From positions 13,160-77,159 of IMG/VR virus record IMGVR_UViG_3300035502_000924: a DNA stretch of 64,000 nucleotides; one strand, written 5' to 3'. The stretch is from a virus. Taxonomy: Duplodnaviria; Heunggongvirae; Uroviricota; Caudoviricetes. Below are positions 2,946 to 52,637 of the stretch, one piece after another. A program made the position numbers and the translations under genes. The notes beneath the pieces were generated by a model. It did not search any database. It was not told the DNA's origin and saw only the letters and a list, made by a program, of their open reading frames with translations. Position 1 is the stretch's first letter; each line of letters starts with the position of its first letter.

Positions 2946-2946
2946 T

Positions 2947-2972
2947 GAGGAGATTTAATATCTCCTTTTTTA
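2947..2972 (+). terminator. rho-independent terminator
   Basis: aggagat-ttaat-atctcct followed by T6. The hairpin core is nearly the same as the terminator at 2348. Confidence 0.7.
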
Positions 2973-3121
2973 TTGTAAAAATTTATCAACTACTATATGA
3001 TGTTTTCACTAATTAAAGATGTAATGGCTTCTTACTAAAAAATATTAAAATATAGTATATTTTTATTTACTCAATATATTTTACAAATAAAAGATTTTCA
3101 TAGTAAAGGAGACATATATAT

Positions 3122-3478: not shown

Positions 3479-4377
3479 ACGACAGTTTTAGCAATATAAA
3501 GTTTACCGTCATGGAAGCCACTGGTGCATTACCCACTGAGAAAAGAGTTAGGGAAATGAATAACTACCAGTGGCTTTGGTATTATATGAATATTATTGAA
3601 TCTAAAAAGAGAAGAAATGAAGAAAGAGATAATATCATTCAATATATGTCATATTTCTGGAATTATGACATGGCTAAATCTGTCGCAGAGCAAAAGGAAG
3701 CAGAAAAACGTAAAAAAGAAAGAGAAGAAGCAAAGAAGAATAACACAGAAGTTCAATATAATCCGTATGAAGAAAGGAATGTATTAGCAGAGGGTGAAGT
3801 ATATAATGATACATTTGATGATGAAATTGAATCAATATTAGCAAATGAAAGACAAATAGAGTTACCTGGTAGTGGTAATAAAGTTTCTTCTGAATCAAAA
3901 GAAGAATTTATGGAAAGAGCATTTAACATTGAAAAATTATTACAAGAAAGTCCTAATATAAAAGAACTTCAATACATAGAACCAGAAGTAAAGAAAATAA
4001 AAAGGCAACAAAGAGAAGAAATGATGAGAACGGAAAATACAGTAGTAAGGAATAGAGGAGAAAGACCATTATTAGTAAATCCTAAAAAGGCAAAAAAGCC
4101 ATCTACGCACCCAACTACACTTGATAGTGGAAATAGAAAAAATACTTCAAACGAACATACTATTGAGAATGAAAGAACTAATATTGTAAGAAATAATGTT
4201 GTAAGAAATAACAAAAATCATAAAAGTTCTAAAAAACCTGTATTAAAAAATAATAATGAAATAGTTGGATTTAAAAAGAGTAATGAAGTGGAAGATTTAT
4301 TAAGTTTTGATAAATTTAAGAGTAGTGCAAATAATGATGATTTAGATATAATTACAAGTCCTACAAATGAAAAATGA
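3472..4377 (+). CDS. gpT-like extension of the tail assembly chaperone, expressed as a G-T fusion via the -1 frameshift
   Basis: The ORF is open from the slippery site. It is K/E/R-rich, and the frameshift position upstream of the tape measure gene is the conserved one. Confidence 0.5.
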   Translation, partial: LLNDSFSNIKFTVMEATGALPTEKRVREMNNYQWLWYYMNIIESKKRRNEERDNIIQYMSYFWNYDMAKSVAEQKEAEKRKKEREEAKKNNTEVQYNPYEERNVLAEGEVYNDTFDDEIESILANERQIELPGSGNKVSSESKEEFMERAFNIEKLLQESPNIKELQYIEPEVKKIKRQQREEMMRTENTVVRNRGERPLLVNPKKAKKPSTHPTTLDSGNRKNTSNEHTIENERTNIVRNNVVRNNKNHKSSKKPVLKNNNEIVGFKKSNEVEDLLSFDKFKSSANNDDLDIITSPTNEK

Positions 4378-4402
4378 CATATAAAAGAGGTGAAAATAAA
4401 TA

Positions 4403-10400: not shown

Positions 10401-11863
10401 GTGGCAGTAGTAGTGGTGGTACAGGAGCAACAGTAGAATTTAAAGGCAATTTAGATGAATATACTAAAAAATACTTTGCAACACCAGGTTCAACTGTTGA
10501 TTTTTGGAATACGCTTTTAGGTGATATGGGGTATTCAAATGGATTTGCATCCTTTACTCCTGATGTATGGGCAGAGAATGCTTATAATAACACAAATTAT
10601 TCAACAGCTGGTACTAAGACCATAGATACAAAAACACAAGGAACTAAGTATGTTACTTATGAATTAACTACGCCAGTATCTAATAAACATTGGTGGACAA
10701 GTGCCAATTATGAGATACCAAATACTAATAACCAAAAATATTATTTAGAACAAGCCATAAAACAAGCCCCTAATTCGACTACTGCTGGCATAATTAACAA
10801 CATGATTAAAGGTACTACAGATTATATATCAAACAGTGAACTCTTAGCTATAAACCAATTGTTAGCTAAAGCTGGAACAGGTGTACAACTTTCAGTATCA
10901 GCAGGTGCAAGTGATAAGCTAAAAGCAGCTTCAAACAAACCTGTTAGAAATTTGGTAATGACAAAAGCTGTAAAAGAAGAAACTACTACACAACAACAAG
11001 TTACTGATGAAAATAATAGAACATTTAATGCATCAGAATTAGTAAAAAGTTTGATAGCAGGACATATATACTCACTTAACAATTATACAGTAGGTACTAA
11101 CAAAAACGGTGAAATAGAATCCACTAGTTTGAGAATTCTCAGAACTGGTGATGATTCATTTATGATTGGTTCATATAAATATTCAGACAGTGCAGGTACT
11201 CAAATTGTAACAAATAGAACAGATATGGATACTGCTACTTTGGTAAGAACAATACAAAGTGGATATGCTGATACGACAAATAAAGATATTGCAACATTGA
11301 CTGATTTGACAGGAGATATTTCTTCGAAACTTTCAGAAGTAACAAGAGAAACAACTCCTACTACCACTCCCGAAGAAACAACAGACCCTGAAGAAGAACA
11401 ACGAAAGAAAGAAGATAGCAAAAATATGGCAGAAACGGCTAAAAATACAGGTGATGCTGTTGATGCTCTTAATGGTACAGGCTATTTAGGTGCAGGTCAG
11501 TTGTTATTTACAGCTCAAACATTTGGTTCTAATTCATCATTGTCAGGACAATCATTAGCAACAACTGATTGGGAAGGATATTCAACCAGTTTGACAGAGG
11601 CAGGCGGTGGATTGGTTGCCCCTGATGCACAGATACTTTCTTATGCACTTGCAACTAGCAGTGAAATTAATAGTTATGCAACATTAAATAAAAATTTACA
11701 AGAGAATGGTTCAAATCAAACTGTAAATATTAACGTTAAAGCTGATATAACTGGATTAGATACAAACGTAGAAGAAATGAGTAAAAATGTTTCAGAAGCT
11801 ATAACTTATCAAGTTTTAGATGATACTGGTGTTACTGCTGTTGTTAATACAACTATTTCATAA
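4403..11863 (+). CDS. tail tape measure protein (2486 aa)
   Basis: Very long alpha-helical, coiled-coil-like N-terminal half. It has a glycine- and hydrophobic-rich membrane-like segment (IIGILCGLL...AAGGAMIAAGAAWGV). It sits immediately after the chaperone frameshift pair. Strong RBS aagaggtga. Confidence 0.85.
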   Translation: MNNNVNSPLTDMLKNSSEWGASYQNATNVNEEESNTKRIIDVVVNDEDARKRIKELSDEYAKSLELKIETKLDKHEDVLKELKEVRDFIESANSDFRINVEVDGLSAFNAVSKDLDQMQSKIASVQQNVLKFSDSFNELDASKISTYNSQIESAIGISKDAKKEAQDLVNSLNADIQTKNFADLTEKLIDLQSIMATAGMGGKEFNDIISSIGGEKLAAEFESSSAALKQLKENISTTVTEFNNFSKVKEPLENIVSTLSKQAEQMDKNLEKAKEINQTKIQWKIDGDGNATKLANALDLSSEIEMFKKQKKEIEKIQEELNGAAKKGNFIETALGGKDTGSGVNRQYLDRNKQMSKHINGTVFNTSNYLIDTEDDSTTITDNLSKISEKYGIYNKTLADRHKSFVTMLNEELNVLQQNENKIKEQSEEGLISSDEAEKAIEEIKKQRKALNEQLNESQKQTVEDINKLAEGNARLIAAAGENAVGNYSMMNYGDTFKSDNKKMLDTSVGNIKTLSNIERRMEGPKSFKGLMTGKNVIKNLGTQLALETQGVNVSDIKNIARSNAGKADFVNKNFDNIAGGLNTALSTNNKEDIDMYKGQLGGLSSQFGDKKDIKSLSKAAKMDTKGDKNLEGLKKAAQDQIAVEKQSISSLLMLYQQLDENGQLSDDQQEEMERLKEAMNDLEEATEENSDKQEKSSSSSGNLGSTISSFLQGFEKLLSNAGALLSTPLASRAMSMFEDTSLGKGISSFMEDKLGLTGGLDNIPTGKALEIALDPYKAYNYIGLSNFNADGYRERSIELNKQFEQQHFNVAQTNAKYGLSGNYDLAEDKAKELYRATNGVVGFEDLSQNYDAVAKTGIQDSKTAGQWAEYATLMDKVGAMDSSEVISTLKNLYTNMDLTAEKSVQMVNRIASAAKNSKVSVSDYAQAVTSIADGYRRVGLDADDALNVMGNLMDAGYSFKDAQEMASTFGNSLSTFSNNNSDVILSGLMSGGTDPYKMLADAQDVTDPNWGKNMASGMQSILDMKESMFGKGSNLAKYEVMKTMQTDFGFSQKQSAEMYHKLQDGDIGSLEDLLDEIANEDSGESIEEINSKLLDETVKLGGEVGGIQEMVAKFDYSAAKDGVEEIKKLESTLSGFVDSNINDMQEKLEIDYSEMTEYLDSKAGQWTQSHAELMNELSGSFKTIIGILCGLLTSSIFSNLFSGLSSLLSGGSSLLGSAAVGSAATIAAGGAMIAAGAAWGVHDANKALEYAQENGGAEGAAMREGFWSGSHRNEQGLHDGTNMAANAGKFALIGAGIGTFIPGVGTVVGGAIGAGVGAVLGSEVYDTYVNGNSREYNRIRSGYNENKNALTEKYISAGYSEEVAQTMSDGLYKFSSELKGQNSTTMDAFARYYAEAIASGKTPEQAISDFTSNIDDNVDKIITQMKEEGVEVTDENGIVTENGDTTQNLVTDMSSEQNALFDKWAGAANKEVVMKGGESLTLKEVVESISKDESTAEKAGTNDVRKWILGKDNQALASLNKYGGDYDKILEAATTGDKGAAKGLQLVQDALFTSVAFHSASAKKDESDAYESLVAGDRTLTAVRTGDITNYERQYVTQGEQQISKDIQDLKNKTVGSTDFNNTWNKYKGVIEQNPLYKQEYQNALKNGSTAEEAAKKAQEAIQEAIKDKVSTEDPQALSDMIGISVADAMAAIDDNNNPTPTSTEQSDMNKIYDLWAGIYSNGGNLEFVSDKGDYTANANISDIFKGFTQTFDENDTTLVGSIVNRNRDDIDYALEKAGSNTTTSEVLSKYMKDGNFDTVSFLENAKNNANSDEGIILKTFTNNMLPADTNDLTKYRDFKGMGTGEKDGVTFTGTSETLSLKRTQDMTNLVTNKNDNYVSTVDLRSPLNTKEDGKKLLELLGSKIQDKNGNGNYDELIDILEDDTGEQLQELINGNLDIFTSNEDLKKILDDDGTISQNNSKSILSFLKSIIDSGIKIKNITNGNNNNDGSSDGSDGGSGSSSGGTGATVEFKGNLDEYTKKYFATPGSTVDFWNTLLGDMGYSNGFASFTPDVWAENAYNNTNYSTAGTKTIDTKTQGTKYVTYELTTPVSNKHWWTSANYEIPNTNNQKYYLEQAIKQAPNSTTAGIINNMIKGTTDYISNSELLAINQLLAKAGTGVQLSVSAGASDKLKAASNKPVRNLVMTKAVKEETTTQQQVTDENNRTFNASELVKSLIAGHIYSLNNYTVGTNKNGEIESTSLRILRTGDDSFMIGSYKYSDSAGTQIVTNRTDMDTATLVRTIQSGYADTTNKDIATLTDLTGDISSKLSEVTRETTPTTTPEETTDPEEEQRKKEDSKNMAETAKNTGDAVDALNGTGYLGAGQLLFTAQTFGSNSSLSGQSLATTDWEGYSTSLTEAGGGLVAPDAQILSYALATSSEINSYATLNKNLQENGSNQTVNINVKADITGLDTNVEEMSKNVSEAITYQVLDDTGVTAVVNTTIS

Positions 11864-15736: not shown

Positions 15737-18700
15737 ATGATTAAAAGAAATGGAGGTGTAATTGGTTTGGATGGAACAATACTTGCTAATTTGCAAGAAG
15801 CTATAACAAGTAATGATTTTCTTACTTCTCAAAAAAAATTAGTTGATGATACTTATAAAAATGATATATCATACTTATCTTCTGCACAAGAAGCTTCTGA
15901 TGCGTATATGGCAATGAAACAAAGAATACCTATGGTATTAGAGTATTATGTAACACCGTATGAAATTCATACAGTTGAAATGTACATAAATCCTAATAAG
16001 ATAAATATGAAACATCAAAAGATTACGTCTAAAACAGTTACTCGTGGTGGTATATTCTTTCATCATTATGGTGAAGATATTCCTGTTATGACTATTTCAG
16101 GTAATACTGGTTTATCAGGTATGAGTGGTATTGCAGAATTAGAGAAAATATTTAATTATTCAGGTACGCTTTTAAGATATCAAAATGTAGGTATAAATAA
16201 AATATATAATGGCGATAGCGAACCTTTACAAATATTATATTTAGATGATGCTGTTGAGTATTATGATAAAATAGTTGCTTCAAGTACTTCACTTGAAGAT
16301 ATACAAAATGCAAGTAATCAACTTACAGGTTTGTTAAGTTCAAGTTCAGAAAGAACAACTTTAACAACAGAAAAAGCTGCTGAGTTAGTAAATCTTGAAC
16401 TTTCTTCTTTATATTCAACTTTAAGTTTAAATCTTGCCTGTACAACAATACAAACTATTATTGCAAAGGTTAATGATGAAATAGCAACTATGTTAAGTAA
16501 AAATCAACAAGTAACATTTGCTACTGTATATAAATTAACTCAAACACAAGTTAAAAATTCTTCATTATCAAATGGTAAAATGCTGACAGCTTCAATACCA
16601 TTTCCATCAAGTTCAGAATGGTCAACTAATAAAGCAGAAGTTTTAGAAGAAATTTCAGAATATTTAGATGATATTAAGGATGCTTATGATGTGGATGACA
16701 CTGATGATATTACATATACTATGGTTAGTAATTATTTAAGTACATATCAAGAAACTGAAACTTATGATGTTTCTGAAATTGCATTTCAAATAGCAATAGA
16801 AATTTATAATTCTAACGTTGAATCATTAAATGGCACAGCTACTACGACAGAAACAGAAGATACAACAACATCTGCTACTGTTGAAAATGGTTTTGACAAG
16901 GATTTATATGTATGTGTAAGTGAAAGTGCTTATTTATATTCTGAACCTAAATTTACTGCTACTAAAATAGCACAATTATATCGTGGTGGTGAAGTAACAG
17001 TAAATCACGTAGATTCACCAGGAGCTTGGGGAATGGTTTCATATTACGAGGGTGGATATATAGCACTTGAAAATGGTGCAGAAGAAGATATCAACCAATA
17101 TACTATTACAGAAGAAGGAATACAAATGTATCGCTGGAATGGAATTGGTGATATGGATAAAATAACACAAGAGATAATGGAAAAAACTGCCGAAGGTAAA
17201 ACATATTCAGAAATAACAAATCCATCAACTGATGATAGTTCAAATAACAATAATAATAACAATACAACATCTTCAACATATTCACTATTAGGTTTTGGAA
17301 TGAATAAAAGTAGTAGTTCTACTTCTGTAAAAACAGTGAGTTCTTCTTCCATATTAGAGTTTAACAATATAAAATATGATACAGATTATTATGTATATCT
17401 TGCAATAAATCCTACTACAAATATTAATAACGTAAATTTGGATTTTATATCTTATAGTACGTCAAAAGAAGTATACGGTAAGGATTTAACTAAAAAAAGT
17501 GATGGAGTGTATACAGTTAAAGTAAGTTTTAAAGATAAGTCATCTTCAAAAAACTATGGTTCGATTTATGGTATTCAATTATATATAAATGGGGAACTTG
17601 TAAAATCAATAAATAGTTTTTATACAGGGAATAAAGAAGATAAAATATTTGCAAAAATTAATTTTGATACAGATACAGCTAGTTCTATATCTTATAATTC
17701 TTATGACCCAAGTATGGCAAAATCTATAAATAAAACAAGAAACATTTCTTTAAATAATGAAGAAAATAACGATGAAGATGTAACTATTAACTATGACAAT
17801 ATAATTGATGAAAACAATATTGAAGCTTTTTCATCAGAAGATATTGCAAATATGCCAGTAATGTCAACTTCAAATGTAACAGTAGAAGGTTTATCTACTA
17901 ATGCAGATTGTATTTATTATTCATTTAATAGTTATAAAATGTCAAATAATATAGAATATAGTTCTGCTGATGCTGACTGGTTTGCTGGATTTAAGGGTAT
18001 AACTAGCGAGTCTGAATATCGTATTCTTACCGATGGTTATGATGTAGAATTTTATATATATGTTAATGATATTGCAGAGAGTAATCTTACTGGTCTTTGT
18101 GTTGTTAAAGTCTATAAAGGATTAAGTGATACTTCTAATAAATCAAAATATGTATATGAAATAAAAGATATATTAACTACTAAATCAGATATCATAGATG
18201 ATAGTTATTTTGATTATACATATAGTCACAATGATGTATCATCAGTATATGGTAGTTGTGAAGAATTAATTATTTATCCTATAATAAATAATGTTATTAA
18301 ACCAGACCAAGGTGCGGTTAGTGTTCAATTTACAACAACAGCAAAATCTAGTTTAAGTATTAGCAAAATAATTAAGAACGCATATTTTGTCAATGAATCA
18401 GGCGATACTTCAAAAAGTATTACTGCAATAAGAAATAAATATGGTAATTCCGATACTACTTATACAATAACTGTTGAAACGTTAGTAAATGTAAGTAAGA
18501 TAGAGTTATCTACAAATTTTGATAATACTAGTGTAAATTCACAATCAATGAACGCTTCAAAAGCTGTTTGGTATAGAAGTAATTCCACCAGTTCCAATCC
18601 TTTAAGTTGCCCTTATTATAGATTTAGTGGTATTAAATATAAATTCAATGACCCAACAACAGGTAGTAGAACATTACATATTAAAGCAACATTAGAAAAT

Positions 18701-21700
18701 GGTAAAGAAATAACTGATACTTATGATAATTTATCTGTTTATTTAACTAATAAATCAGGTACTACATCAGATAATGCAGACGATTATATTACAAGTTTTG
18801 AGTTTTATGACGATAGCGATTATGATACTGTATTAAGTTATTCTCGTATAAAATATGGCGAATATTTATACATAAAAGTAATAACAACAAGTGATGTTAC
18901 AAAAATTAGATTTAAATCTGATACTATTTCAAGTATTAATAATCAAACTGTTACAAGTTATAAAACGACAACAGGGTCTAAAAGGTATTTTACATATAAA
19001 ATTAAGCTTACTTGTAGTACGGGTGTTACCCATACAATAAAAGTACAACCATATATAGACGATGAAGAAGCTTGGGTAAGCGATTATCTTTCAAATTGTA
19101 TAAAAGTAACAGCTTCGTCTACTGATGATGACGATGATGATGACGATGATGATACTAGTTATATAACATCTTCTGATTACATTATTTCTACAAGTGTAAC
19201 AAAAAATACCACTAAGAAAATTACCGCTACAATAAAAACCACTGATGATATAACAAAAGTACTTTTATATACTTATGCTGCTGGCGATTCCGATATAGTA
19301 GATGAAGTATATAGTTCAACAAGTAGTTATAATACATTTAAAGTTAGTTATACAATGAAAAAAACAGGATATTTATTCTTAAAATATTATGTTTCTGGTA
19401 GTGGTTGGAGACCTAGTAGTAAATACTATCGAATAGGTAAGGTAAGTTGTTCATCTTCAAGTAGTTCATCTGATGATGACGATGATGACGATAGTATTAG
19501 TTCAACTGAAAGTAATACTTATATAAAAAGTGTCACATTTAATAAAAGCAAGGTAACAAAAAACAGTTCTTTTACTTCTACTATTGTAACAACAGACGAG
19601 GTTACAAAAGTAAGAGTCCGTATGGCTGATTCAAGTGATTCAACAACAAAATCTACTACTTATTCTTCAACAAGTACAAGAAATACTTTTAAGGTAAATT
19701 ATACTGCTTCAAAAACAGGCTATGTATATATTAAGTTTTATATTGACGGTGAAGGTTGGTATGATAAATATTATAAAGCAGGAAAAATAACTGTTAGTTC
19801 TTCAAGTAGTAGTTCTAGTTCATCAAGTTCATCAAATAGTAGTTATATTGATTATGATAGTGTTGATGATTATATTGAAGAAATTACTGTTAGTGGTATG
19901 GTTAGTGGAAAAATAAAAACAGGAAGTACTCCAACCATAACTGTTACAACAACAGATGAAGTAGATAAAATTAGAATATCTAAAAGTTGGGATAGTAAAA
20001 CTAAAGTTATTTCAAGTTATGAAGAAGATGATGATACAAGAATATTTTCAAAAGCTTATCCAGAAATGTCAGAATCAGGCACGCAATATATATATGTTGA
20101 ATTATATGTTGATGGTGAATGGTTGGATGATACAGCTATTATAAAAGCATATGTAAATAAAAATGTTGTTAGTACTTCTGATATAACAGCAAGCGATGAA
20201 TTATTAAGTGTAAAATTAAGTCCTACAACAACTCTTATTGGTGAAAAGGTTACAATATCATTTAAAGCACAGCCAGAAGTAACTAAAATAAAAATAACAG
20301 ATAAAACAACAGGAACAGATATAACAACACTAAAACAATCTTCTAATGGTACATTGGCAAGTACTGGTGTATATACATATAGTACAACTACATCATTTTC
20401 AAAAATAGGAACACATCGAATAGCATTAACTCCTTATGTTGATGATGGGTTCTTATCAACTTCAATTACCAAAGAGGTTTTAATTACTGATGTATCTAGT
20501 AGTACAACAACAGATACTAGTACTTCTACTACTGAAACAACAACGTCAGAAATGAAGTTTACAAAAGCAGGAGTTACTTCAAAAGGCACATTTACATCTT
20601 GTTGGTATAAAATAGATGGAGATTATTATATATTTAGACATTACAACCCTACTGAATCAAGTAGCGATAATGTTTTTGTTGCAGTTAAAAGTGGACAATG
20701 GAAAATGGCTGAAAATGCTTCAAATAAAATGAACCAATTGACACACTGGTATGCAAAAGATAGAATACCTGTTTATTGTACTGTAAATTATACATCAGAT
20801 ACTATTGATAGTAAAAGTGATTTAGTTTCTGTTAATACATACATTGAAAAAGGTGACACTTTTGTTACAAATAATCATGTTACATTATCTGACGATACAA
20901 TACATAATAGTAATAACACACAAATATGGTATAGAGTGTACTTTACCGATAATACTAGTTTTACTTCAAGCACCTATTCTTCATTTGGTACAGGTACTAC
21001 AACTGCACAATTTAGTAGTGATGACACTTCAACAAAATATAAAGGTAGTACAACTACAACAGAAGATACTTCTTCTGATACAACAACTGAAACAACAACA
21101 TCTTCAAATTCAAACTCAACTACCACCTCAGAAACTACTACCGATGGAGATACTACTACTGCTCCAACAGCAGATGATATGAAGAATTATTATGAACTTA
21201 ATCTTTCTTCAAGTTCAACTCTTGATACAACAGGAGAATATTTGCAACGTTCAACAAGTTATTGGATTCCTATGTATAAAACAGACGGTTCAAAATATAT
21301 GTCAGATTCAGAAGTATATAATACATTAGTAAAGGATTATGTAAAATTATATACAGTTGTAAGCGAAGTAGCATATTTATATTTTGGACCTGATGAAAAA
21401 TATGGTAAGGTTTCCAGTACTCCATTAACAGTAAATAGTAAATTTACCTGTTGTGAATTAAGTAATGATAGACTTTGGGCAAAACAGGTTATTGCCACTT
21501 CAAAAATAGATGATACTGATTATTTAAAAGAAAATGGTTATGCAGAATATCCAGGTTGGACTAAAGTAGAATGGTTGGAAGAAGGCTATACAGGACCAAT
21601 TTCAATATTAGAATCTGAATTGAATAGTGAAAATGATGAAAATTCTTTGACCAATTTAATAACAAATAACAACATTACAACAGCTATTTCTGATACAAAC

Positions 21701-23788
21701 ATTGAAGCTGCTACGGATTTGGAAAAAGCATTAATAGGTATACGAGAATGGAATAAAGCAAGTGTTGTAAAAAGATATGAAGTTGAAAGTGGCTTTGCTG
21801 ATATTGCCGATGAATTAACTGATGAATGGAGACCAAGACTTGTTTATATTTATTTTGAAGATAGAGTTTATTTAGGACATTTTGAGAGTTTTACTTATGA
21901 TAGAGTGGCTGAAACTGAAAATATCAGTTATACAATGGTATTTAATATTCATAGAATAGTTTCTGTTACATCAATTAGTCCTAATAGATTTGAACAACAA
22001 AAGCAATTGGGATTGTTTGGATTTACTCCTGATGAAGATAGTACATCAGATAGTGCAAGTGTAAGCGATTATCAAACAGAATTTGAAGCAGGAAATGATT
22101 TACCATTAAAAGTAGAAATATTAAGAACAAGATGTACTTATTATAGAGAGGCAAGAATGGCAGCGTATAATGGCATAGAAATGACAGAAGAAAGAAAAAC
22201 AGAAATACATAATTGGGCTGTTTCATTAAGAGCAGCAAGTATGTATGGTGGCATACAACAAATAACAGAGTCTACTCCTATATATGGCAATGTTGAAGGT
22301 TTTGATGGTACTTTTGATGGTTCTGATAGTTTTTATCCTATATATTTATATTTTATGCAATTGCAATATGCACAAGAAGAAACTATTAGTTCTGAAAAAT
22401 ATGTACTTCCATATGACAAGCCATTACCTTATTCTTGGACAACTGATGAAGGTTTTACTATGGCACAAACAGCATTAAATTTAACAACAAGAATAGATGG
22501 TACTCCTGTAACAAAAGCTATGCTACAACAAAATGAATCAGCTCCTTTTAACTTTTTAAATAAATATGATGAAATTTCTGAAATAGAATTATTAAGAGCA
22601 AGAGAAATTTGGGAAGCAGAACGTGGAACTTACGTAAAAATGAGAAAAGATGAAATATGTGGACACGCTGGCAGATTACTTTGTTCAACAGGTGCAAGGT
22701 TCTATATAAATGGTAACTATCAAAAACTTTTAGAGTATTATAGTTATCAAATGGAAAATGAAGGTATTGCTGGTAATTCTGCATTAGTAAGTGGAGATAT
22801 TGATTCTATTATAGTTGATGAAAATACATTAAGAGATATTTTTACAACAGAAGAATTTGTAACAATAAGAAGTGAATTAAAAGACTTTTTATTGAAACTT
22901 GAAAAAGATTCATCAGGTAATGCAATTACAGAAGATAATGTAGAAGATTATATTGGTCAAAATAGAACAGTATCAAGTTGTAAAGATTGGATGACAGCAG
23001 AACAATATGATAAGTTATATCAAACTTATTATAGACAATATCTTTGGAAAACATATTCTTCTTTATTAAAAGAAACTAGTGATAAAAAAGTAGGTACTTA
23101 TATATTTGTAAGTACATTGAAAAGTATTCTTACTGAAAGTGAACTTGAAACATTTAAGAAATGCACAAAAGAATATAGTGAAGAAATATATAATAATTGT
23201 TTTGGAAAAGATGCTAAAGATACAAACTCTTTAACATTTAATTGTATATATTATATTTTAATAAACAATACTGATATAACTACTAAGATATTAAAATATG
23301 GCAGTACTTATAATTATTCTACGGAAGAAGCGGCAGAAGTAGCAATGAATACTACAGCTGCTAATATGACAGCAAGCGGAAGTACTATGGCAAAAGAAAT
23401 ACTTGCTCTTAAAGAAGTATTACCTACACTTTCTTATTCTAAGAACACAACAACATCATCATTGCTTAAAGCACTTAATGCTCGTGATAGTAGTATCGCA
23501 CCTAATATAAAACTTACACAAATTATATTTACTGATAATTCAGAATATTATGAAGAAGATAACACTTATTGGTTTGCAGGTACTTTTAAATTTACATATG
23601 CAAATTATCAAGCAGAACAAAGTGCTGATTTCTCTGTTGGTGTATTAAAAGAAAAAACTACAACAGATGAAGATACCGATGATACAGATAGTGAAAACTC
23701 AGATTCAAACACAGACGATAAAGATAAGACAGATACAGATGATAAGAATAAAACCGATACAGATGATGGTTCAGAAAAGGGCGATTAA
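15737..23788 (+). CDS. giant repeat-rich tail or baseplate structural protein (2683 aa) with SH3b-like domains and tandem Ig-like modules
   Basis: Two SH3b-like segments: YVCVSESAYLYSEPKF...GGYIALENG and YTVVSEVAYLYFGPDEKYGKVSS. There are at least 3 tandem ~110-aa repeats (TKV/TKI..YSSTS..NTFKV.YT..KTGY..) separated by poly-Asp and poly-Ser/Thr linkers. A D/K/T-rich acidic tail is present. An alternative TTG start at 15767 has a stronger SD (ggaggtg). Confidence 0.75.
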   Translation: MIKRNGGVIGLDGTILANLQEAITSNDFLTSQKKLVDDTYKNDISYLSSAQEASDAYMAMKQRIPMVLEYYVTPYEIHTVEMYINPNKINMKHQKITSKTVTRGGIFFHHYGEDIPVMTISGNTGLSGMSGIAELEKIFNYSGTLLRYQNVGINKIYNGDSEPLQILYLDDAVEYYDKIVASSTSLEDIQNASNQLTGLLSSSSERTTLTTEKAAELVNLELSSLYSTLSLNLACTTIQTIIAKVNDEIATMLSKNQQVTFATVYKLTQTQVKNSSLSNGKMLTASIPFPSSSEWSTNKAEVLEEISEYLDDIKDAYDVDDTDDITYTMVSNYLSTYQETETYDVSEIAFQIAIEIYNSNVESLNGTATTTETEDTTTSATVENGFDKDLYVCVSESAYLYSEPKFTATKIAQLYRGGEVTVNHVDSPGAWGMVSYYEGGYIALENGAEEDINQYTITEEGIQMYRWNGIGDMDKITQEIMEKTAEGKTYSEITNPSTDDSSNNNNNNNTTSSTYSLLGFGMNKSSSSTSVKTVSSSSILEFNNIKYDTDYYVYLAINPTTNINNVNLDFISYSTSKEVYGKDLTKKSDGVYTVKVSFKDKSSSKNYGSIYGIQLYINGELVKSINSFYTGNKEDKIFAKINFDTDTASSISYNSYDPSMAKSINKTRNISLNNEENNDEDVTINYDNIIDENNIEAFSSEDIANMPVMSTSNVTVEGLSTNADCIYYSFNSYKMSNNIEYSSADADWFAGFKGITSESEYRILTDGYDVEFYIYVNDIAESNLTGLCVVKVYKGLSDTSNKSKYVYEIKDILTTKSDIIDDSYFDYTYSHNDVSSVYGSCEELIIYPIINNVIKPDQGAVSVQFTTTAKSSLSISKIIKNAYFVNESGDTSKSITAIRNKYGNSDTTYTITVETLVNVSKIELSTNFDNTSVNSQSMNASKAVWYRSNSTSSNPLSCPYYRFSGIKYKFNDPTTGSRTLHIKATLENGKEITDTYDNLSVYLTNKSGTTSDNADDYITSFEFYDDSDYDTVLSYSRIKYGEYLYIKVITTSDVTKIRFKSDTISSINNQTVTSYKTTTGSKRYFTYKIKLTCSTGVTHTIKVQPYIDDEEAWVSDYLSNCIKVTASSTDDDDDDDDDDTSYITSSDYIISTSVTKNTTKKITATIKTTDDITKVLLYTYAAGDSDIVDEVYSSTSSYNTFKVSYTMKKTGYLFLKYYVSGSGWRPSSKYYRIGKVSCSSSSSSSDDDDDDDSISSTESNTYIKSVTFNKSKVTKNSSFTSTIVTTDEVTKVRVRMADSSDSTTKSTTYSSTSTRNTFKVNYTASKTGYVYIKFYIDGEGWYDKYYKAGKITVSSSSSSSSSSSSSNSSYIDYDSVDDYIEEITVSGMVSGKIKTGSTPTITVTTTDEVDKIRISKSWDSKTKVISSYEEDDDTRIFSKAYPEMSESGTQYIYVELYVDGEWLDDTAIIKAYVNKNVVSTSDITASDELLSVKLSPTTTLIGEKVTISFKAQPEVTKIKITDKTTGTDITTLKQSSNGTLASTGVYTYSTTTSFSKIGTHRIALTPYVDDGFLSTSITKEVLITDVSSSTTTDTSTSTTETTTSEMKFTKAGVTSKGTFTSCWYKIDGDYYIFRHYNPTESSSDNVFVAVKSGQWKMAENASNKMNQLTHWYAKDRIPVYCTVNYTSDTIDSKSDLVSVNTYIEKGDTFVTNNHVTLSDDTIHNSNNTQIWYRVYFTDNTSFTSSTYSSFGTGTTTAQFSSDDTSTKYKGSTTTTEDTSSDTTTETTTSSNSNSTTTSETTTDGDTTTAPTADDMKNYYELNLSSSSTLDTTGEYLQRSTSYWIPMYKTDGSKYMSDSEVYNTLVKDYVKLYTVVSEVAYLYFGPDEKYGKVSSTPLTVNSKFTCCELSNDRLWAKQVIATSKIDDTDYLKENGYAEYPGWTKVEWLEEGYTGPISILESELNSENDENSLTNLITNNNITTAISDTNIEAATDLEKALIGIREWNKASVVKRYEVESGFADIADELTDEWRPRLVYIYFEDRVYLGHFESFTYDRVAETENISYTMVFNIHRIVSVTSISPNRFEQQKQLGLFGFTPDEDSTSDSASVSDYQTEFEAGNDLPLKVEILRTRCTYYREARMAAYNGIEMTEERKTEIHNWAVSLRAASMYGGIQQITESTPIYGNVEGFDGTFDGSDSFYPIYLYFMQLQYAQEETISSEKYVLPYDKPLPYSWTTDEGFTMAQTALNLTTRIDGTPVTKAMLQQNESAPFNFLNKYDEISEIELLRAREIWEAERGTYVKMRKDEICGHAGRLLCSTGARFYINGNYQKLLEYYSYQMENEGIAGNSALVSGDIDSIIVDENTLRDIFTTEEFVTIRSELKDFLLKLEKDSSGNAITEDNVEDYIGQNRTVSSCKDWMTAEQYDKLYQTYYRQYLWKTYSSLLKETSDKKVGTYIFVSTLKSILTESELETFKKCTKEYSEEIYNNCFGKDAKDTNSLTFNCIYYILINNTDITTKILKYGSTYNYSTEEAAEVAMNTTAANMTASGSTMAKEILALKEVLPTLSYSKNTTTSSLLKALNARDSSIAPNIKLTQIIFTDNSEYYEEDNTYWFAGTFKFTYANYQAEQSADFSVGVLKEKTTTDEDTDDTDSENSDSNTDDKDKTDTDDKNKTDTDDGSEKGD

Positions 23789-46122: not shown

Positions 46123-48630
46123 TTACTTTTTTAATAATCTCATATCAAACTTTTTAATTTCCCAAGCTTCTTCTGTTCTATATAATTTTTCTCTTGTTCT
46201 GGCGTGTCTACGAAGCATAGGTGTATAATCTTGAAAATCAAACACAATAGCTCTTTTCTTTTCTTTACCTGTTTCAGGATTTTTATATAGTCTTAATACT
46301 CTACCCACTCTTTGAAAAGCTCTTGTGGAACTACGACCACCACCTGCTAATATCAAAATCTCTAAGTTAGGTATGTCAAGTCCTTCATCTGCTATTGTAC
46401 TACCTATTAAGATTTCTACAAAACCATCTCTTACACCTTGAATAACAGCCTTTCTTCTTACAGCATCATCCTTACCTGATAAAAATTCTACATTAGCAAT
46501 TCTAACTAATTTATCTTTACCTGTCTTATCATCAGTTACTTGAACTGCTTTTTTTACTATTTCTATCTTTTTAGATAACATTTTTAATATTGTTTCTCCG
46601 TGTTCTACTTGTTGAATTAATATTAAGATAGGTGCGTGTTTTACTTCTCTCATTTTAACTGCTATACTAACAACAATTTGATTTCTTTCTATATTATTAG
46701 CAATAGCTTCTTTATAAACTTTATTATAAGATTTACCTTGAAAAACTCTTTTGTAAGGAATAAAGTAAATAGTACAAGGCACTAAATATCCCCATTCAAT
46801 AAGTTTGCTTGCTGAAATATCATTTTCTTCTTTTCTTCTATCTAGTGCTGCTTCTAATAATAAATCAGCACCATCTTCTCTCCACGGAGTGGCTGATACA
46901 CCAATTCTATAATAAGCATTTTTAGCCCATTTAGATATTTCTACAAATGTATTAGAACCTATATGATGACATTCATCAAATAAAATCATATTAGAATCTT
47001 TAATATCTTCTTCTGTTGTTGATTGAGCAGAATAAACAGTTATATCTCTTTTCTTGTTTATGCCACCACCAACAATACCTACTTCTTCCCCTAAAAACTT
47101 TCCAATTTCATCTTTTAGCTGTGTACATAAAGTTAATTTATCAGCAAAAATTGAAACAGGTCTAACATTAAACTTATCAATTAATCCTGCCATTATAAAT
47201 GTATTATGCGTTACTATAAAATCTTTACAAATAAATGTATGTAATGGACTATCTACTGCTATACACTTCATTTCAGACTTTGTAGGTAATGGAGTTATTG
47301 AAACAATTTTTAAAGCATTATAATGATGATTTTTGCCTATTCTTCTATTCTTAAATCTTTCAGTATGTTTTTTTGATGTAAATAATTTATCATCACAGCC
47401 ACGAACATGAATATACCACGTTTTGTTTCTATATCTATCACTATTAATTGTTCTTTTATCTAATACAATTTTCGCTCTATATCCAAGACTATTTAATAAA
47501 AATTGTACATCTTCTACTAATCGTTTGCTAACGGAACAATAAGTAATATGTCCTTTACTATTTACAGTACCATCTGTATCAAATAGTCCTTGTAAAAGTG
47601 CTATTCTGTCATTAACATCAGAAAATTTATATTCTTCGGGAATAAATTTATCTTCGCTTTTAATTCTTCCAAAAACCTTATGTATATAATCTCTTAAATT
47701 ATCTTTTTTTCCACCGCAACCATATGTGTATTGAATCCTGTCTTTATGTCCATTTTTAAATTCTCCACCAAATTGTCTTGCTAAATCTTTTACTTTATTA
47801 ATTACATCTTCCTCTGTATTTGTAAAAGTAATTTGTCTTTGAGAAAAGCCACCATCGCCTAATAATGCTCCCAATAAATATGGCGGTAAAAATAAATCTT
47901 TTTTCTCAAACTGAATTGGCTTACATACGGGAATGCTTAGAACTAAATTTCTTCCTGTTTTGATTTTATGATTGTTTAATATTTCTTCAACAGTTTTTAC
48001 TTGCCATTTATTTTTTGAAAGATTGTCTCTTGTTGCAAATTTCCATAAATGATTTTTACAACATTTAATAGTTGTACCATCGTTAAATACTATTTCATAT
48101 TCTTGTTGCTCACCTTGTGGATATTCTCCGATAACAGTTGTTTTATCTCCATTTTCATCAAAAACAATACTTCCTACGTGAATATCTTTTAATGGAACAA
48201 AACCATCAGGGGTTAGAATTGGCGTATCTAAGGGAATCGACTTGCCGCCGCCCGTACTGACCCTTACTATTTCCCTGTTTGAGGCGTTATCAATTATTTT
48301 TTGTTGATAATCTCTCGCTTTTAACTCTACTTTTGAACCATCAGGTAAAGTCAAATATTCTTGTAATGCAAAATTAGCATTTTGTTCGGGTACTACTCTT
48401 GTATCTGTTATTTTATATCCAATATTATTTTCTTCTAATATTTCATATACATAATTTAATAAACCAGTATAGGTCTTTTTTGTTTTTCTATTGTACAAAT
48501 GTCTTATTTGAATATATTCACAACCAAATTCTTTTACTTCAAAACTTAATTTTTCCCATATCTTTAATTCAATATCTTTTGAAAAACCAATCAACTTTGA
48601 ATATACATTATCAATTATAATTTCTGCCAT
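46123..48630 (-). CDS. SF2 DEAH-box DNA helicase (COG1061, UvsW/XPB-like) interrupted by an intein in the Walker A P-loop
   Basis: The extein carries these motifs: I TGGGK|T (split), II DECHH, III SAT, V GSTIADEGLDIP, VI QRVGRVLR. The precursor is 835 aa and the predicted mature protein is ~489 aa. Confidence 0.8.
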   Translation of the reverse strand: MAEIIIDNVYSKLIGFSKDIELKIWEKLSFEVKEFGCEYIQIRHLYNRKTKKTYTGLLNYVYEILEENNIGYKITDTRVVPEQNANFALQEYLTLPDGSKVELKARDYQQKIIDNASNREIVRVSTGGGKSIPLDTPILTPDGFVPLKDIHVGSIVFDENGDKTTVIGEYPQGEQQEYEIVFNDGTTIKCCKNHLWKFATRDNLSKNKWQVKTVEEILNNHKIKTGRNLVLSIPVCKPIQFEKKDLFLPPYLLGALLGDGGFSQRQITFTNTEEDVINKVKDLARQFGGEFKNGHKDRIQYTYGCGGKKDNLRDYIHKVFGRIKSEDKFIPEEYKFSDVNDRIALLQGLFDTDGTVNSKGHITYCSVSKRLVEDVQFLLNSLGYRAKIVLDKRTINSDRYRNKTWYIHVRGCDDKLFTSKKHTERFKNRRIGKNHHYNALKIVSITPLPTKSEMKCIAVDSPLHTFICKDFIVTHNTFIMAGLIDKFNVRPVSIFADKLTLCTQLKDEIGKFLGEEVGIVGGGINKKRDITVYSAQSTTEEDIKDSNMILFDECHHIGSNTFVEISKWAKNAYYRIGVSATPWREDGADLLLEAALDRRKEENDISASKLIEWGYLVPCTIYFIPYKRVFQGKSYNKVYKEAIANNIERNQIVVSIAVKMREVKHAPILILIQQVEHGETILKMLSKKIEIVKKAVQVTDDKTGKDKLVRIANVEFLSGKDDAVRRKAVIQGVRDGFVEILIGSTIADEGLDIPNLEILILAGGGRSSTRAFQRVGRVLRLYKNPETGKEKKRAIVFDFQDYTPMLRRHARTREKLYRTEEAWEIKKFDMRLLKK
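47203..48240 (-). mobile_element. intein (346 aa) with a LAGLIDADG homing endonuclease domain, inserted between Lys and Thr of the helicase P-loop
   Basis: It starts with Ser (SIPLDTPILTPDGF, block A) and ends ...FIVTHN followed by the +1 Thr. There are two LAGLIDADG motifs: YLLGALLGDGGF and ALLQGLFDTDGTV. Confidence 0.8.
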
Positions 48631-51343: not shown

Positions 51344-51478
51344 TGGTGAGTGGTGGGCTTCTTAGGTCAAAGCGGTGCAAGTCTTAAAGTTCTATCGCAA
51401 GTATTGAACGATATGTGAAGTGAACTACCCTCACCTTTCGGACGGTAAATCGCCCGAAGTCACCAACTAAGGGTGCTT
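51344..51478. ncRNA. candidate structured RNA or GC-rich noncoding island (unclassified)
   Basis: ~135 bp at roughly 48% GC in a ~28% GC context. Stops in all six frames. Complementary GGTGAGTGG and CCCTCACC segments enclose ~70 nt, with a TTTCGG-12 nt-CCGAAG hairpin and a cttag/ctaag long-range pair. No known RNA family recognised. Confidence 0.3.
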
Positions 51479-51671
51479 ATAAAAAATAGTTTTAAAAACT
51501 TTACAATATTATAATATAATATTTTCCTTAATTTGTCAAGTGTTTTTTGTAAAAAATTGTATTGTTAAAACGTCTCAGAATCAATTTTAAGACCTATAAC
51601 GATTTATTGTGAATAAATATTAAGTAAACTATTTATACCCTCTTAAAATTGATTTTAAAACTATTTAAACA

Positions 51672-51710: not shown

Positions 51711-52039
51711 TGTTGAACTTCATTATCTGTTTCTTCTGCAATTTCTCCCATTTCAGCTTTAACTGCTTCTTTATATTTATTAAAAAACATAGTACAATAA
51801 CTACCAAAGTTTGAAAAATCCGTGCCCATGCTACAATTCGGATTGAAAGGATTGTTAGAATCATTTCCTGGAAAGCAACTATCTGAAATTGTAACATTGT
51901 TTTCATTTTCAAAACTTTTAATTGCAGTAGAAAAGTTATTCATTACTCTTATTAACTCATTTCTACATAAATCAAATTGACCTTCTAATTCTTGTGTATT
52001 AATCGCAGAAGTTTTCATCAATCTTTTCATTTTTAACAA
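51707..52039 (-). CDS. hypothetical small protein; the likely true start is the ATG at 52030 (107 aa)
   Basis: RBS agagagg 9 nt before the ATG at 52030. Cys-rich (CFPGNDSNNPFNPNCS) with an acidic C-terminus. Co-oriented with, and overlapping, the end of the upstream membrane protein gene. Confidence 0.45.
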   Translation of the reverse strand: MLKMKRLMKTSAINTQELEGQFDLCRNELIRVMNNFSTAIKSFENENNVTISDSCFPGNDSNNPFNPNCSMGTDFSNFGSYCTMFFNKYKEAVKAEMGEIAEETDNEVQQ

Positions 52040-52637
52040 CCTCTCTATTGATTATTTTATAAATAAATATACTACCTAACGAATTTCCCAAAGTTACAAA
52101 TAAAATAAATGATATAGAATAAATATTTATTTTATTTGCTAAAAATATATAAAACATATCAGCAACACAGTGTTCAGCACCAATTAAAATAAATACTGCT
52201 ATACATAATATTACTGCTACTATTTTCATTATTGCTTCATTACTTTTTTTATATACTTCAACTGCAATAAATATTAAAATACCGCATAAAAATGAAAAAA
52301 ATAAAATTTCAAAAATAGTATAATTTAATTTCAACTCAACTATTGTTTCTATATTAATGGCTTTTATTTTACAAGTATTTCTATAACACAATGCTGTAAT
52401 AAAACATCCAAGCAGATTTCCTATCCATATAATTAATAATTCTAAGGAATTTTCATTCTCAGTAATATAACCAATTTTCCCTGTATACAAATCTAATTTA
52501 AAAAAAAGTATTGTTAGTAATCCTATGGAAAATAAAAAACTGCCGATAATTTTGTCAGTGGATAAGAATACGATACTTGCAATACTAATCATAATTCCTG
52601 CTAGAAATGCAGATAAAAATAAATTAAGAAATTTCAA
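51999..52637 (-). CDS. FNT-family-like (formate/nitrite transporter-like) membrane protein, short form (212 aa)
   Basis: TTG start with a strong RBS aaggggag. Six hydrophobic segments. KLDLYTGK and GAEHCVADMFY resemble the two FNT signature loops (ELFTGN and FEHSIANM). Confidence 0.45.
   Translation of the reverse strand: MKFLNLFLSAFLAGIMISIASIVFLSTDKIIGSFLFSIGLLTILFFKLDLYTGKIGYITENENSLELLIIWIGNLLGCFITALCYRNTCKIKAINIETIVELKLNYTIFEILFFSFLCGILIFIAVEVYKKSNEAIMKIVAVILCIAVFILIGAEHCVADMFYIFLANKINIYSISFILFVTLGNSLGSIFIYKIINREVVKNEKIDENFCD

What the first reader, a model, noticed from the sequence alone, without database searches (positions are those of the whole stretch)
47203..48240. Full-length LAGLIDADG intein splits the Walker A lysine-threonine of a phage SF2 helicase
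The insertion lies between GGGK and T of the P-loop, with Ser at the intein +1 position, a C-terminal HN and an extein Thr. The intein retains both LAGLIDADG motifs, so it is probably an active homing endonuclease. The P-loop codons ggcggcggcaag are GC-rich in an AT-rich genome, consistent with a conserved homing site. Inteins mark essential and conserved genes, so this argues the helicase is a core replication gene rather than a defence gene.
Basis: partly seen in the sequence, partly recalled or inferred. Interest (0 to 1): 0.6.

Follow-up and report, generated by a model that had tools for sequence, protein, structure and literature searches.

The report
Class 3 intein in phage helicase
A self-splicing, mobile protein insert (an intein carrying its own DNA-cutting enzyme) sits exactly inside the ATP-binding loop of a giant-phage DNA helicase; it is real and probably recently mobile, but it belongs to a large, already described family.

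Summary
Window 47203-48240 (minus strand) encodes a 346-aa intein between Lys130 and Thr477 of an 835-aa SF2 helicase (ORF 46123-48630). A syntenic relative carries a 489-aa, 95%-identical helicase that lacks exactly these 1038 nt. The intein has blocks A, B, F and G, both LAGLIDADG motifs with their acidic residues, and a confident PI-SceI-like model.

1. This is a class 3 (Trp-Cys-Thr, WCT) intein: Trp66, Cys326, Thr344 and Thr+1. In about 250 relatives Cys F:4 is invariant, while residue 1 is mostly Ala. So Ser1 is probably not the initiating nucleophile; Cys326 is.
2. The GC-rich P-loop codons are not a conserved DNA homing site. The empty allele and other occupied alleles use AT-rich codons there. 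The patch lies at a sharp peak of divergence around the junction, which looks like a co-conversion scar.
3. The intein does not show that the helicase is a replication gene. Relatives of this intein sit at GK|T in PhoH, ClpX-like, DnaC-like, DnaB, RecA and terminase proteins.

Verdict: an ordinary new member of a known kind.

The parts
46123..48630 (-). Helicase precursor gene, 835 codons plus stop: N-extein, intein, C-extein.
   Evidence: An identical protein (P0001) is on 7-8 metagenome contigs, the longest 502,690 bp.
48241..48630 (-). N-extein, aa 1-130, ending in Walker A STGGGK (48241-48258).
47203..48240 (-). Intein, 346 aa (Ser1 to Asn346), made of a Hint splicing domain and a LAGLIDADG endonuclease domain.
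   Evidence: AlphaFold2 model with pLDDT 91 and pTM 0.91. Foldseek TM 0.74 to PI-SceI.
48202..48240 (-). Intein block A, SIPLDTPILTPDG (Ser1).
48037..48078 (-). Intein block B, GTTIKCCKNHLWKF: Cys61 (B:7), His64 (B:10), Trp66 (B:12, the W of WCT).
47845..47883 (-). First LAGLIDADG motif, PYLLGALLGDGGF (Asp129).
47563..47601 (-). Second LAGLIDADG motif, ALLQGLFDTDGTV (Asp223).
47227..47274 (-). Intein block F, EMKCIAVDSPLHTFIC. Cys326 is F:4, the predicted initiating nucleophile.
   Evidence: Cys326 aligns with the catalytic Cys118 of the M. smegmatis DnaBi1 intein, PDB 6bs8. It is invariant in 126/126 and 124/124 relatives.
47203..47226 (-). Intein block G, KDFIVTHN: Thr344 (G:5, the T of WCT), His345, Asn346.
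46123..47202 (-). C-extein, aa 477-835 plus stop. It starts with Thr+1 (47200-47202) and carries motif II DECH (within 46963-46983), motif III SAT (within 46879-46899) and motif VI QRVGRVLR (46291-46314).
48217..48288 (-). Patch of GC-rich third codon positions (codons 115-138) across the N-terminal splice junction. It overlaps the GC-richest 60-mer of the whole window (48203-48262, 57% GC).
48241..48330 (-). N-side flank with raised divergence from the intein-free allele; probable co-conversion tract.
47113..47202 (-). C-side flank with raised divergence from the intein-free allele; probable co-conversion tract.

Best explanation
The segment is a mobile class 3 intein with an embedded double-motif LAGLIDADG homing endonuclease. 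It is inserted at the classic P-loop site (GxGK|T) of an XPB/UvsW-like SF2 DNA helicase of a roughly 500-kb phage related to Bacillus phage G.

Shown here: the insertion is precise and in frame. It is absent from a 95%-identical syntenic orthologue. It has all the splicing blocks, the WCT triplet, both LAGLIDADG aspartates and a PI-SceI-like predicted fold.

Inferred mechanism: the 835-aa precursor cannot bind ATP properly because its Walker A loop is split. Cys326 (block F position 4), activated by His64 and Trp66, attacks the Lys130-Ser131 peptide bond and forms a branched thioester. The N-extein is then passed to the side chain of Thr+1. Asn346 cyclises and releases the intein. An O-to-N shift restores GGGK-T in a 489-aa helicase. 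Ser1 is probably dispensable.

The freed intein (or the precursor) cuts the uninterrupted P-loop coding sequence of intein-free helicase alleles during co-infection. Repair from the intein-bearing copy then copies in the intein together with short stretches of flanking extein, which would explain the divergence peak and the odd codon patch at the junction.
For: Precision of the insertion: P0002/L003 lacks exactly the 1038 nt in a syntenic context of amidase, MerR-like gene, small ORF and helicase.

Intein identity: LAGLIDADG_3 E = 1.6e-18. Sequence matches to solved inteins and endonucleases (gp41-1, PI-PfuI, DnaB inteins, I-DmoI). Model pLDDT 91 with Foldseek hits to PI-SceI (E = 3.7e-19, TM 0.74), Tli/Pho VMA inteins and PI-PfuI.

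Class 3: His64, Trp66, Cys326 and Thr344 align with His65, Trp67, Cys118 and the Thr of the THN ending of the experimentally proven class 3 Msm DnaBi1 intein (PMC5222942; PMC6195587). The block F spacing K-C-I-x-x-D-x-x-x-H-x-F equals Lys319 to Phe330 of the mycobacteriophage Bethlehem DnaB prototype (PMC2807308). Among 126 relatives, F:4 is Cys in 126, G:5 is Thr in 126, B:12 is Trp in 120, +1 is Thr in 111 and Ser in 15 (never Cys), and residue 1 is Ala 95, Cys 8, Glu 6, Ser 5. An independent set of 124 representatives of 50%-identity clusters gives Cys 124, Thr 122, Trp 122 and Ala1 95. Residue 1 toggles between Ala and Cys within one tight clade of 818-aa helicases.

Mobility: the nearest extein relative is empty, whereas 47-73%-identical exteins carry 57-74%-identical inteins. 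A DnaB protein carries a 53%-identical copy. Differences from the empty allele are 27 in 120 nt within 60 nt either side of the junction, against 89 in 1350 nt elsewhere (Fisher p = 1.2e-7). Both synonymous and non-synonymous changes are enriched there.

Endonuclease: Asp129 and Asp223 are kept here, but are lost in several orthologous copies whose endonuclease domains are degenerate or shortened.
Against: No biochemistry exists for this protein. This copy has Ser1, a competent class 1 nucleophile, which does not meet the original definition of class 3 as lacking an N-terminal nucleophile. A class 1 or mixed route therefore cannot be excluded from sequence.

Endonuclease activity is inferred only from motif retention and population pattern. 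The divergence peak could also come from precise intein loss in the L003 lineage by recombination with a foreign empty allele, or from adaptation of extein residues near the junction; non-synonymous changes are more enriched than synonymous ones.

The GC-rich third-position patch is not explained by a GC-rich donor, because the rest of the intein is 28.5% GC like its host.
Confidence: 0.8

Rival explanations
1. It is a canonical class 1 intein. Ser1 performs the initial N-to-O acyl shift and Cys326 only assists.
For: Ser1 is present here and in the closest relative, P0241 (74% identical). Eight of 126 relatives have Cys1 and five have Ser1. Three of the 37 WCT inteins in the original survey had Ser1 or Cys1 and were then of unknown class (PMC2807308).
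Against: Residue 1 is a non-nucleophile (Ala, Glu, Gly, Leu, Met, Pro or Gln) in about 90% of relatives, while Cys F:4 is invariant. Ala and Cys alternate within one near-identical clade. The +1 residue is always Thr or Ser, the class 3 pattern (PMC5222942). The literature states that an N-terminal Cys, Ser or Thr is not required in class 3.
Confidence: 0.1
2. The intein still splices but is now immobile. The endonuclease is inactive and the element is inherited only vertically; the empty allele in L003 reflects old loss or ancestral absence.
For: Intein and extein divergences are similar in most pairs (51-57% against 49-56%), as expected for co-inheritance. Several orthologous copies have visibly decayed endonuclease domains. 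No cleavage data exist.
Against: Both catalytic aspartates and a complete, confidently modelled LAGLIDADG domain are kept. There is a presence/absence difference between phages whose helicase genes are 92% identical at the nucleotide level, with a divergence peak centred on the site. In the P0122 pair the intein is better conserved than its extein (65% against 47%).
Confidence: 0.25
3. It is a dead insertion. The intein no longer splices and the helicase gene is a pseudogene, or works as an interrupted protein.
For: Non-splicing class 3-like inteins exist, for example Arth_1007 (PMC3196547).
Against: Every catalytic position is intact: His64, Trp66, Cys326, Thr344, His345, Asn346 and Thr+1. 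Arth_1007, by contrast, lacks Cys F:4. An 835-codon frame stays open in 28% GC DNA. The identical protein recurs on 7-8 contigs. All helicase motifs are conserved in the exteins.
Confidence: 0.03

Closest known systems
Mycobacteriophage Bethlehem DnaB intein (prototype of class 3; Tori et al. 2010, PMC2807308)
   Same: WCT triplet. Block F spacing K-C-I-x-x-D-x-x-x-H-x-F is identical. It ends in T-H-N followed by Thr+1. It is about 340 aa long and sits in a phage helicase.
   Different: The host protein is a DnaB-type (SF4) helicase, not SF2. Residue 1 is Pro and residue -1 is Gln, against Ser and Lys here. B:7 is Ser, against Cys here.
M. smegmatis DnaBi1 and M. chimaera DnaB1 class 3 mini-inteins (PDB 6bs8, 6rix, 6riy)
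   Same: They are inserted in the P-loop after GK (SVGK|Ala1 in Mch DnaB1). There is direct sequence similarity, with His65, Trp67 and Cys118 aligned to His64, Trp66 and Cys326. The class 3 mechanism is proven by mutagenesis.
   Different: They are bacterial and have no endonuclease domain. Residue 1 is Ala and +1 is Ser. DnaBi1 uses Cys48-Cys118 as a redox trap; no equivalent has been shown here.
Mycobacteriophage TerL1-a 'classic' P-loop inteins and P-loop inteins in general (Kelley et al. 2016, PMC5050341; Novikova et al. 2016, PMC4760082)
   Same: The insertion is exactly between the invariant Walker A Lys and the Thr. P-loop ATPases are a known hot spot for inteins.
   Different: The host protein is a terminase rather than an SF2 helicase, and the host phages are actinobacteriophages.
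Unannotated intein in Erwinia jumbo phage Rebecca gp251, 'putative RAD2/SF2 helicase' (MK514281)
   Same: It has the same architecture in an isolated jumbo phage: TGKGK|ATTLDT...EHLW...AQCITV...FIVTHN|TF, with two LAGLIDADG motifs, in an SF2 helicase P-loop.
   Different: It is about 33% identical. Residue 1 is Ala. The helicase is a different, RNA-polymerase-linked SF2 lineage.
PI-SceI (yeast VMA1 intein endonuclease; PDB 1vde, 1ef0, 1lws)
   Same: It shares the overall two-domain fold of a Hint domain plus a double LAGLIDADG domain. It is the best structural match: TM 0.74, E = 3.7e-19.
   Different: It is a class 1 intein (Cys1, Cys+1) with 15% identity, and it has an extra DNA-recognition region.

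Membership tests
Intein (Hint-domain protein-splicing element) | Precise in-frame insertion that is absent from orthologues, with the exteins joining into a conserved motif. | tested here: met
   P0002/L003 is 489 aa, 95% identical and aligns without a gap outside aa 131-476. The ResIII match becomes contiguous after removal.
Intein (Hint-domain protein-splicing element) | Splicing blocks A, B, F and G with His B:10, a C-terminal His-Asn and a +1 nucleophile. | tested here: met
   SIPLDTPILTPDG...CCKNHLW; EMKCIAVDSPLHTF; IVTHN|T. These positions are conserved across relatives.
Intein (Hint-domain protein-splicing element) | Hint fold. | tested here: met
   AlphaFold2 pLDDT 91. Foldseek hits to PI-SceI, VMA inteins, PI-PfuI and the gp41-1 and Prp8 inteins.
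Intein (Hint-domain protein-splicing element) | Demonstrated protein splicing. | not testable with these tools
   This needs expression of the precursor and detection of the ligated exteins.
Class 3 inteins | WCT triplet: Trp B:12, Cys F:4, Thr G:5. | tested here: met
   Trp66, Cys326 and Thr344. Cys326 aligns to Cys118 of Msm DnaBi1. Cys is invariant in 126/126 and 124/124 relatives. Definition taken from PMC2807308 and PMC5050341.
Class 3 inteins | No Ser, Thr or Cys at intein residue 1 (original definition). | tested here: not met
   This copy has Ser1. However, 95 of 126 and 95 of 124 relatives have Ala1. Later work states only that an N-terminal nucleophile is 'not required' in class 3 (PMC5222942), and WCT inteins with Ser1 or Cys1 were already noted in 2010. 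The 2011 paper that expanded the definition could not be read.
Class 3 inteins | Ser or Thr, rather than Cys, at +1. | tested here: met
   Thr477. In the family, Thr 111 and Ser 15, and Thr 93 and Ser 30, never Cys.
Class 3 inteins | Obligate Cys F:4 nucleophile and a block F branched thioester intermediate. | not testable with these tools
   This needs S1A, C326A, T+1A and N346A mutants and thiol-lability assays.
LAGLIDADG homing endonuclease (single-chain, two motifs) | Two LAGLIDADG helices, each ending in a catalytic acidic residue. | tested here: met
   LLGALLGDG (Asp129) and LLQGLFDTDG (Asp223). Pfam LAGLIDADG_3 gives two stretches, E = 1.6e-18.
LAGLIDADG homing endonuclease (single-chain, two motifs) | Pseudo-symmetric alpha/beta endonuclease fold. 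| tested here: met
   Foldseek matches to I-DmoI and I-Tsp061I over the central domain and to PI-SceI and PI-PfuI overall. Sequence hits to PI-PfuI and I-DmoI.
LAGLIDADG homing endonuclease (single-chain, two motifs) | Site-specific cleavage of the intein-free allele (homing). | tested here: inconclusive
   The evidence is indirect only: presence/absence between 92%-identical genes, and a divergence peak at the site (p = 1.2e-7). There is no cleavage assay.
SF2 helicase (ResIII + Helicase_C; XPB/Rad25 and UvsW-like) | Motifs I (GxGKT), II (DExH), III (SAT) and VI (QRxGRxxR) in two RecA-like domains. | tested here: met
   Spliced extein: ResIII E = 8e-19 and Helicase_C E = 7e-9. Best solved relatives are XPBII at 3e-27, Rad25 at 3e-24 and T4 UvsW at 2e-11. 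The motifs are invariant in alignment A1. No NCBIfam model reached its cut-off.
Replication-module ('core replication') helicase | Function in phage DNA replication rather than in repair, transcription or defence. | tested here: inconclusive
   The gene lies between the tail module and the endolysin, about 5 kb from the initiator, DnaC-like, DnaB, primase and SbcC genes. In L007 the orthologue is close to DnaB and primase. PADLOC hits are generic helicase-domain matches. Rad25-like helicases of some jumbo phages are linked to RNA polymerase (PMC7824862).

The most novel reading that the evidence does not exclude
This Ser1-plus-WCT intein and its 74%-identical sister P0241, which also has Ser1, could be a natural transitional form that can start splicing from either nucleophile, Ser1 by the class 1 route or Cys326 by the class 3 route. 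The family-typical Cys60-Cys61 pair in block B, next to His64, could form a redox trap with Cys326 that gates maturation of the helicase, as Cys48-Cys118 does in M. smegmatis DnaBi1. The private GC-rich recoded patch across the N-terminal junction would then be a second functional adaptation rather than a conversion scar.
Probability: 0.08. Interest if true: 0.5.

Novelty: new member of a known kind. Interest (0 to 1): 0.25.

Why it matters
The practical value is modest.

- It fixes the annotation of this gene: one helicase, with a 489-aa mature product and an ATPase that is inactive until splicing.
- It corrects the assumed chemistry, with Cys326 rather than Ser1 as the likely initiating nucleophile.
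- It provides a clean natural pair of occupied and empty alleles (window and L003), with an apparent co-conversion tract, which could be used to test homing by a class 3 P-loop intein.
- It illustrates that one intein lineage has colonised the GK|T site of many unrelated phage ATPases. About 13,000 50%-identity clusters match this intein at E <= 1e-10, although the weaker of those matches may be inteins or LAGLIDADG endonucleases in general. An intein at this site therefore says 'P-loop', not 'replication gene'.

Nothing here challenges current understanding.

Tried and rejected
- Megablast of the gene against 50,697 phage records found no match. The phage is known only from metagenomes.
- I asked whether the GC-rich junction patch is a repeat, a structured RNA or a shared mobile sequence. 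There is no second copy in the window. The RNA fold z-score is -0.13. There is no exact match in the viral contigs. All three ideas are rejected and the patch remains unexplained.
- I asked whether P-loop GC-richness as such marks a homing site. It is partly an effect of amino-acid composition: the last 45 nt of the N-extein are 42-56% GC in all alleles, including empty ones. Only the third-position excess is special to this allele.
- PADLOC and NCBIfam were scanned to decide between defence and replication roles. Only generic helicase-domain hits came back, all below the curated cut-offs, so this is uninformative.
- The papers by Tori and Perler (2011) and Brace et al. (2010), on WCT inteins with Ser1 or Cys1 and on Dra Snf2, are not held. 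What I say about MP-Catera gp206 and Dra Snf2 rests on citations in PMC3196547 and on memory.
- No tRNA and no Rfam family was found in the window.
Full report
**The observation.** The window contains an 835-codon ORF on the minus strand, 46123-48630. Its product reads ...REIVRVSTGGGK | SIPLDTPILTPDG ... KDFIVTHN | TFIMAGLIDKF... GGGK is aa 127-130. The inserted block is aa 131-476, 346 residues, and corresponds exactly to window 47203-48240. The codons acg ggc ggc ggc aag lie directly upstream of the insert. The only slip is terminology: Ser is intein residue 1, and '+1' is the extein Thr.

**It is a real, precise intein.**
- The insert alone matches Pfam LAGLIDADG_3 at E = 1.6e-18. In the unspliced protein the ResIII helicase model matches only from profile position 37. 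After aa 131-476 are removed it matches as one stretch, positions 2-162 of 164.
- A search of 5.8 billion proteins with the in-silico spliced extein returned the identical 835-aa protein (P0001, on 7-8 contigs of up to 502,690 bp). It also returned a 489-aa protein, 95% identical, of exactly the predicted spliced length (P0002).
- In the alignment P0002 has a single gap that coincides with Ser131 to Asn476.
- Its contig L003 is syntenic with the window: amidase, MerR-like gene, small ORF, helicase, then 92-aa and 112-aa ORFs. At the DNA level it lacks just the 1038 nt.
- Bacillus phage G, the best isolated relative at 57% identity, also has an intact P-loop, ATGAGKTFMM.
- An AlphaFold2 model of the intein with five flanking residues on each side has pLDDT 91 and pTM 0.91. 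Its best structural matches are the bifunctional intein endonucleases PI-SceI (TM 0.74, E = 3.7e-19), Tli and Pho VMA, and PI-PfuI. I-DmoI matches the central domain.

**The splicing class.** The intein has His64-Leu-Trp66 in block B, Lys-Cys326-Ile in block F and Thr344-His-Asn346 in block G, followed by Thr+1. This is the Trp-Cys-Thr (WCT) triplet at B:12, F:4 and G:5 that defines class 3 inteins (PMC2807308; PMC5050341).
- The phmmer alignment to the solved M. smegmatis DnaBi1 intein (6bs8) puts His64, Trp66 and Cys326 on His65, Trp67 and Cys118. Those are the residues shown by mutagenesis to be essential in that class 3 intein (PMC5222942; PMC6195587).
- The block F spacing K-C-I-x-x-D-x-x-x-H-x-F equals Lys319 to Phe330 of the mycobacteriophage Bethlehem DnaB prototype.
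- I read these positions in 126 relatives that cover the whole intein: Cys F:4 126/126; Thr G:5 126/126; His B:10 126/126; Trp B:12 120/126; Asn 125/126; +1 Thr 111 and Ser 15, never Cys; -1 Lys 112. Residue 1 is Ala 95, Cys 8, Glu 6, Ser 5, Gly 4, plus Met, Pro, Gln, Leu and Ile.
- An independent set of 124 representatives of 50%-identity clusters gives the same picture: Cys 124/124, Trp 122, Thr 122, Ala1 95, Ser1 6.
- Within one tight clade of 818-aa orthologous helicases, residue 1 flips between Ala and Cys.

A position that is usually a non-nucleophile and varies freely, next to an invariant internal Cys, is what the class 3 pathway predicts. In that pathway Cys F:4 attacks the N-terminal junction, the N-extein moves to Thr+1, Asn cyclises, and an acyl shift follows. 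This copy does have Ser1, as does its closest relative P0241 (74% identical). The original criterion of no N-terminal nucleophile is therefore not met, and a class 1 or mixed route cannot be excluded without mutants. I put class 3 at about 0.8.

**The endonuclease and mobility.** Both LAGLIDADG motifs keep their terminal Asp (Asp129, Asp223). Most relatives keep them too: 116 and 118 of 126. Several orthologous copies have degenerate or shortened endonuclease domains (P0078, P0086, P0095, P0118, P0129) or Asp-to-Asn changes (P0089, P0090), which is the usual decay phase of the homing cycle.

The distribution of the intein is decoupled from the host gene. The nearest extein relative (95%) is empty, while exteins only 47-73% identical carry inteins 57-74% identical. 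A DnaB (SF4) helicase carries a 53%-identical copy.

Comparison of the window with the empty L003 allele, codon by codon, gives 116 differences in 1470 nt. Of these, 27 fall in the 120 nt around the junction (22.5%) and 89 in the other 1350 nt (6.6%), Fisher p = 1.2e-7. Both synonymous changes (odds ratio 2.5, p = 0.02) and non-synonymous changes (odds ratio 7.4, p = 7e-5) are enriched there. That is the footprint expected if the intein arrived, or was lost, by double-strand-break repair with co-conversion of flanking extein from a more divergent allele. Adaptation of junction residues may contribute as well.

**The GC-rich codons.** Window 48203-48262 is the GC-richest 60-mer in the 64 kb, at 57% against a mean of 28%. 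Codons 115-138 have G or C at the third position in up to 9 of 12 codons, against a gene mean of 13%. The interpretation as a conserved homing site fails, however.
- The empty target in L003 reads ACT GGA AGT GGA AAA. Phage G reads ACT GGA GCG GGT AAA. Two other intein-bearing alleles read GGC GGA GGT AAA and GGA GCA GGG AAA.
- Part of the GC-richness is simply Gly, Ala, Thr and Arg codons, which every allele shares (42-56% GC in the last 45 nt). The third-position excess is private to this allele.
- The patch straddles the junction and runs about 8 codons into the intein, while the rest of the intein is 28.5% GC.
- It is not a repeat, not a stable RNA structure (z = -0.13), and is not found in the viral contigs.

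I regard it as an unexplained local mosaic, most simply a conversion patch.

**The host gene and its role.** The spliced extein belongs to PHROG 16, 'DNA helicase'. Its closest solved relatives are archaeal XPBII (3e-27), Rad25 (3e-24) and T4 UvsW (2e-11). No NCBIfam model reaches its cut-off, and the PADLOC hits are generic. The gene lies between a tail and baseplate module and the endolysin. The initiator, DnaC-like, DnaB, primase and SbcC genes lie 5-12 kb downstream.

The argument that inteins mark essential genes, and that this is therefore a core replication helicase, is weak. Relatives of this intein sit at GK|T in ClpX-like AAA proteins, PhoH, DnaC-like loaders, DnaB, RecA and terminases. 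Rad25-like helicases of some jumbo phages are linked to transcription (PMC7824862). A role in replication, recombination or repair is plausible but is not shown.

**Comparison with what is known.** Insertion between the Walker A Lys and Thr is called the 'classic' P-loop intein site (PMC5050341), and P-loop ATPases are the main intein hot spot (PMC4760082). Class 3 inteins were discovered in phage and prophage helicases. An isolated jumbo phage, Erwinia phage Rebecca, already carries the same architecture in an SF2 helicase (TGKGK|ATTLDT...FIVTHN|TF), although it is not annotated as an intein.

Among the 120 best helicase orthologues, 32 have the P-loop intein, 43 have a different class 1 mini-intein at motif II (DE|CHH), and 35 full-length ones have none.

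The finding is therefore a well-supported new member of a known kind. Interest is low to moderate.

Noticed in passing
L001 (Bacillus phage G, NC_023719) 2983-5615; proteins P0101, P0105, P0106, P0109, P0112, P0113, P0115: The phage G orthologue is annotated as three genes, gp221, gp222 and gp223. gp221 ends in an intein N-part that starts after motif II, FDE|CLSYDSKVLMPNG. gp223 carries ...ENTLVHN|CHH followed by the C-extein. Metagenomic homologues of about 325 aa begin with a C-terminal intein fragment of about 40 aa, directly followed by CHH. This looks like a naturally split ('fractured') helicase joined by a split intein. I found no paper that describes it.
   Followed up: partly
Helicase orthologues P0003-P0120; window motif II at 46963-46983 is uninterrupted: The helicase family has a second intein hot spot at motif II (DE|CHH). 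It is occupied by class 1 mini-inteins of about 150 aa (Cys1, Cys+1) in 43 of 120 orthologues. P0129 and P0241 carry the P-loop intein and the motif II intein together.
   Followed up: partly
window 48203-48288: This is the GC-richest spot of the whole 64-kb window, and it shows an extreme excess of G or C at third codon positions (codons 115-138) across the N-terminal splice junction. The excess is private to this allele. It is not a repeat, not a stable RNA fold, and is not found in the viral contigs. Its cause is unexplained.
   Followed up: yes
window 51380-51520, minus strand (GC-rich core 51417-51476): A GC-rich island (53%) lies in an ORF-poor stretch between the endolysin and ORF 51999-52637. 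On the minus strand it folds with MFE -33.3 kcal/mol and z = -3.07. On the plus strand z = -0.95. There is no Rfam or tRNA hit. It may be a small structured RNA.
   Followed up: partly
L002 (Clostridium phage phi8074-B1, NC_019924) 2234-3937, and many RefSeq phage records listed: RefSeq labels many intein-bearing ATPases 'DarB-like antirestriction', while the corresponding GenBank records call them helicase, primase or hypothetical. phi8074-B1 gp42 has an ATPase P-loop, TTGNGK|AQPLYS...FIVTHN|TAWST, carrying this intein family, and it resembles the DnaC-like loader P0130 (PF01695). The label is probably an annotation artefact driven by the intein.
   Followed up: partly
window 15737-23788 (+) and 4403-11863 (+): Two giant ORFs lie in the tail module. 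The 2683-aa product has no Pfam match at E <= 1e-4. The 2486-aa product matches only a minor-tail (tape-measure-like) domain. Neighbouring giant proteins carry M23 peptidase, NlpC/P60, amidase, tail-lysozyme and baseplate J domains.
   Followed up: no
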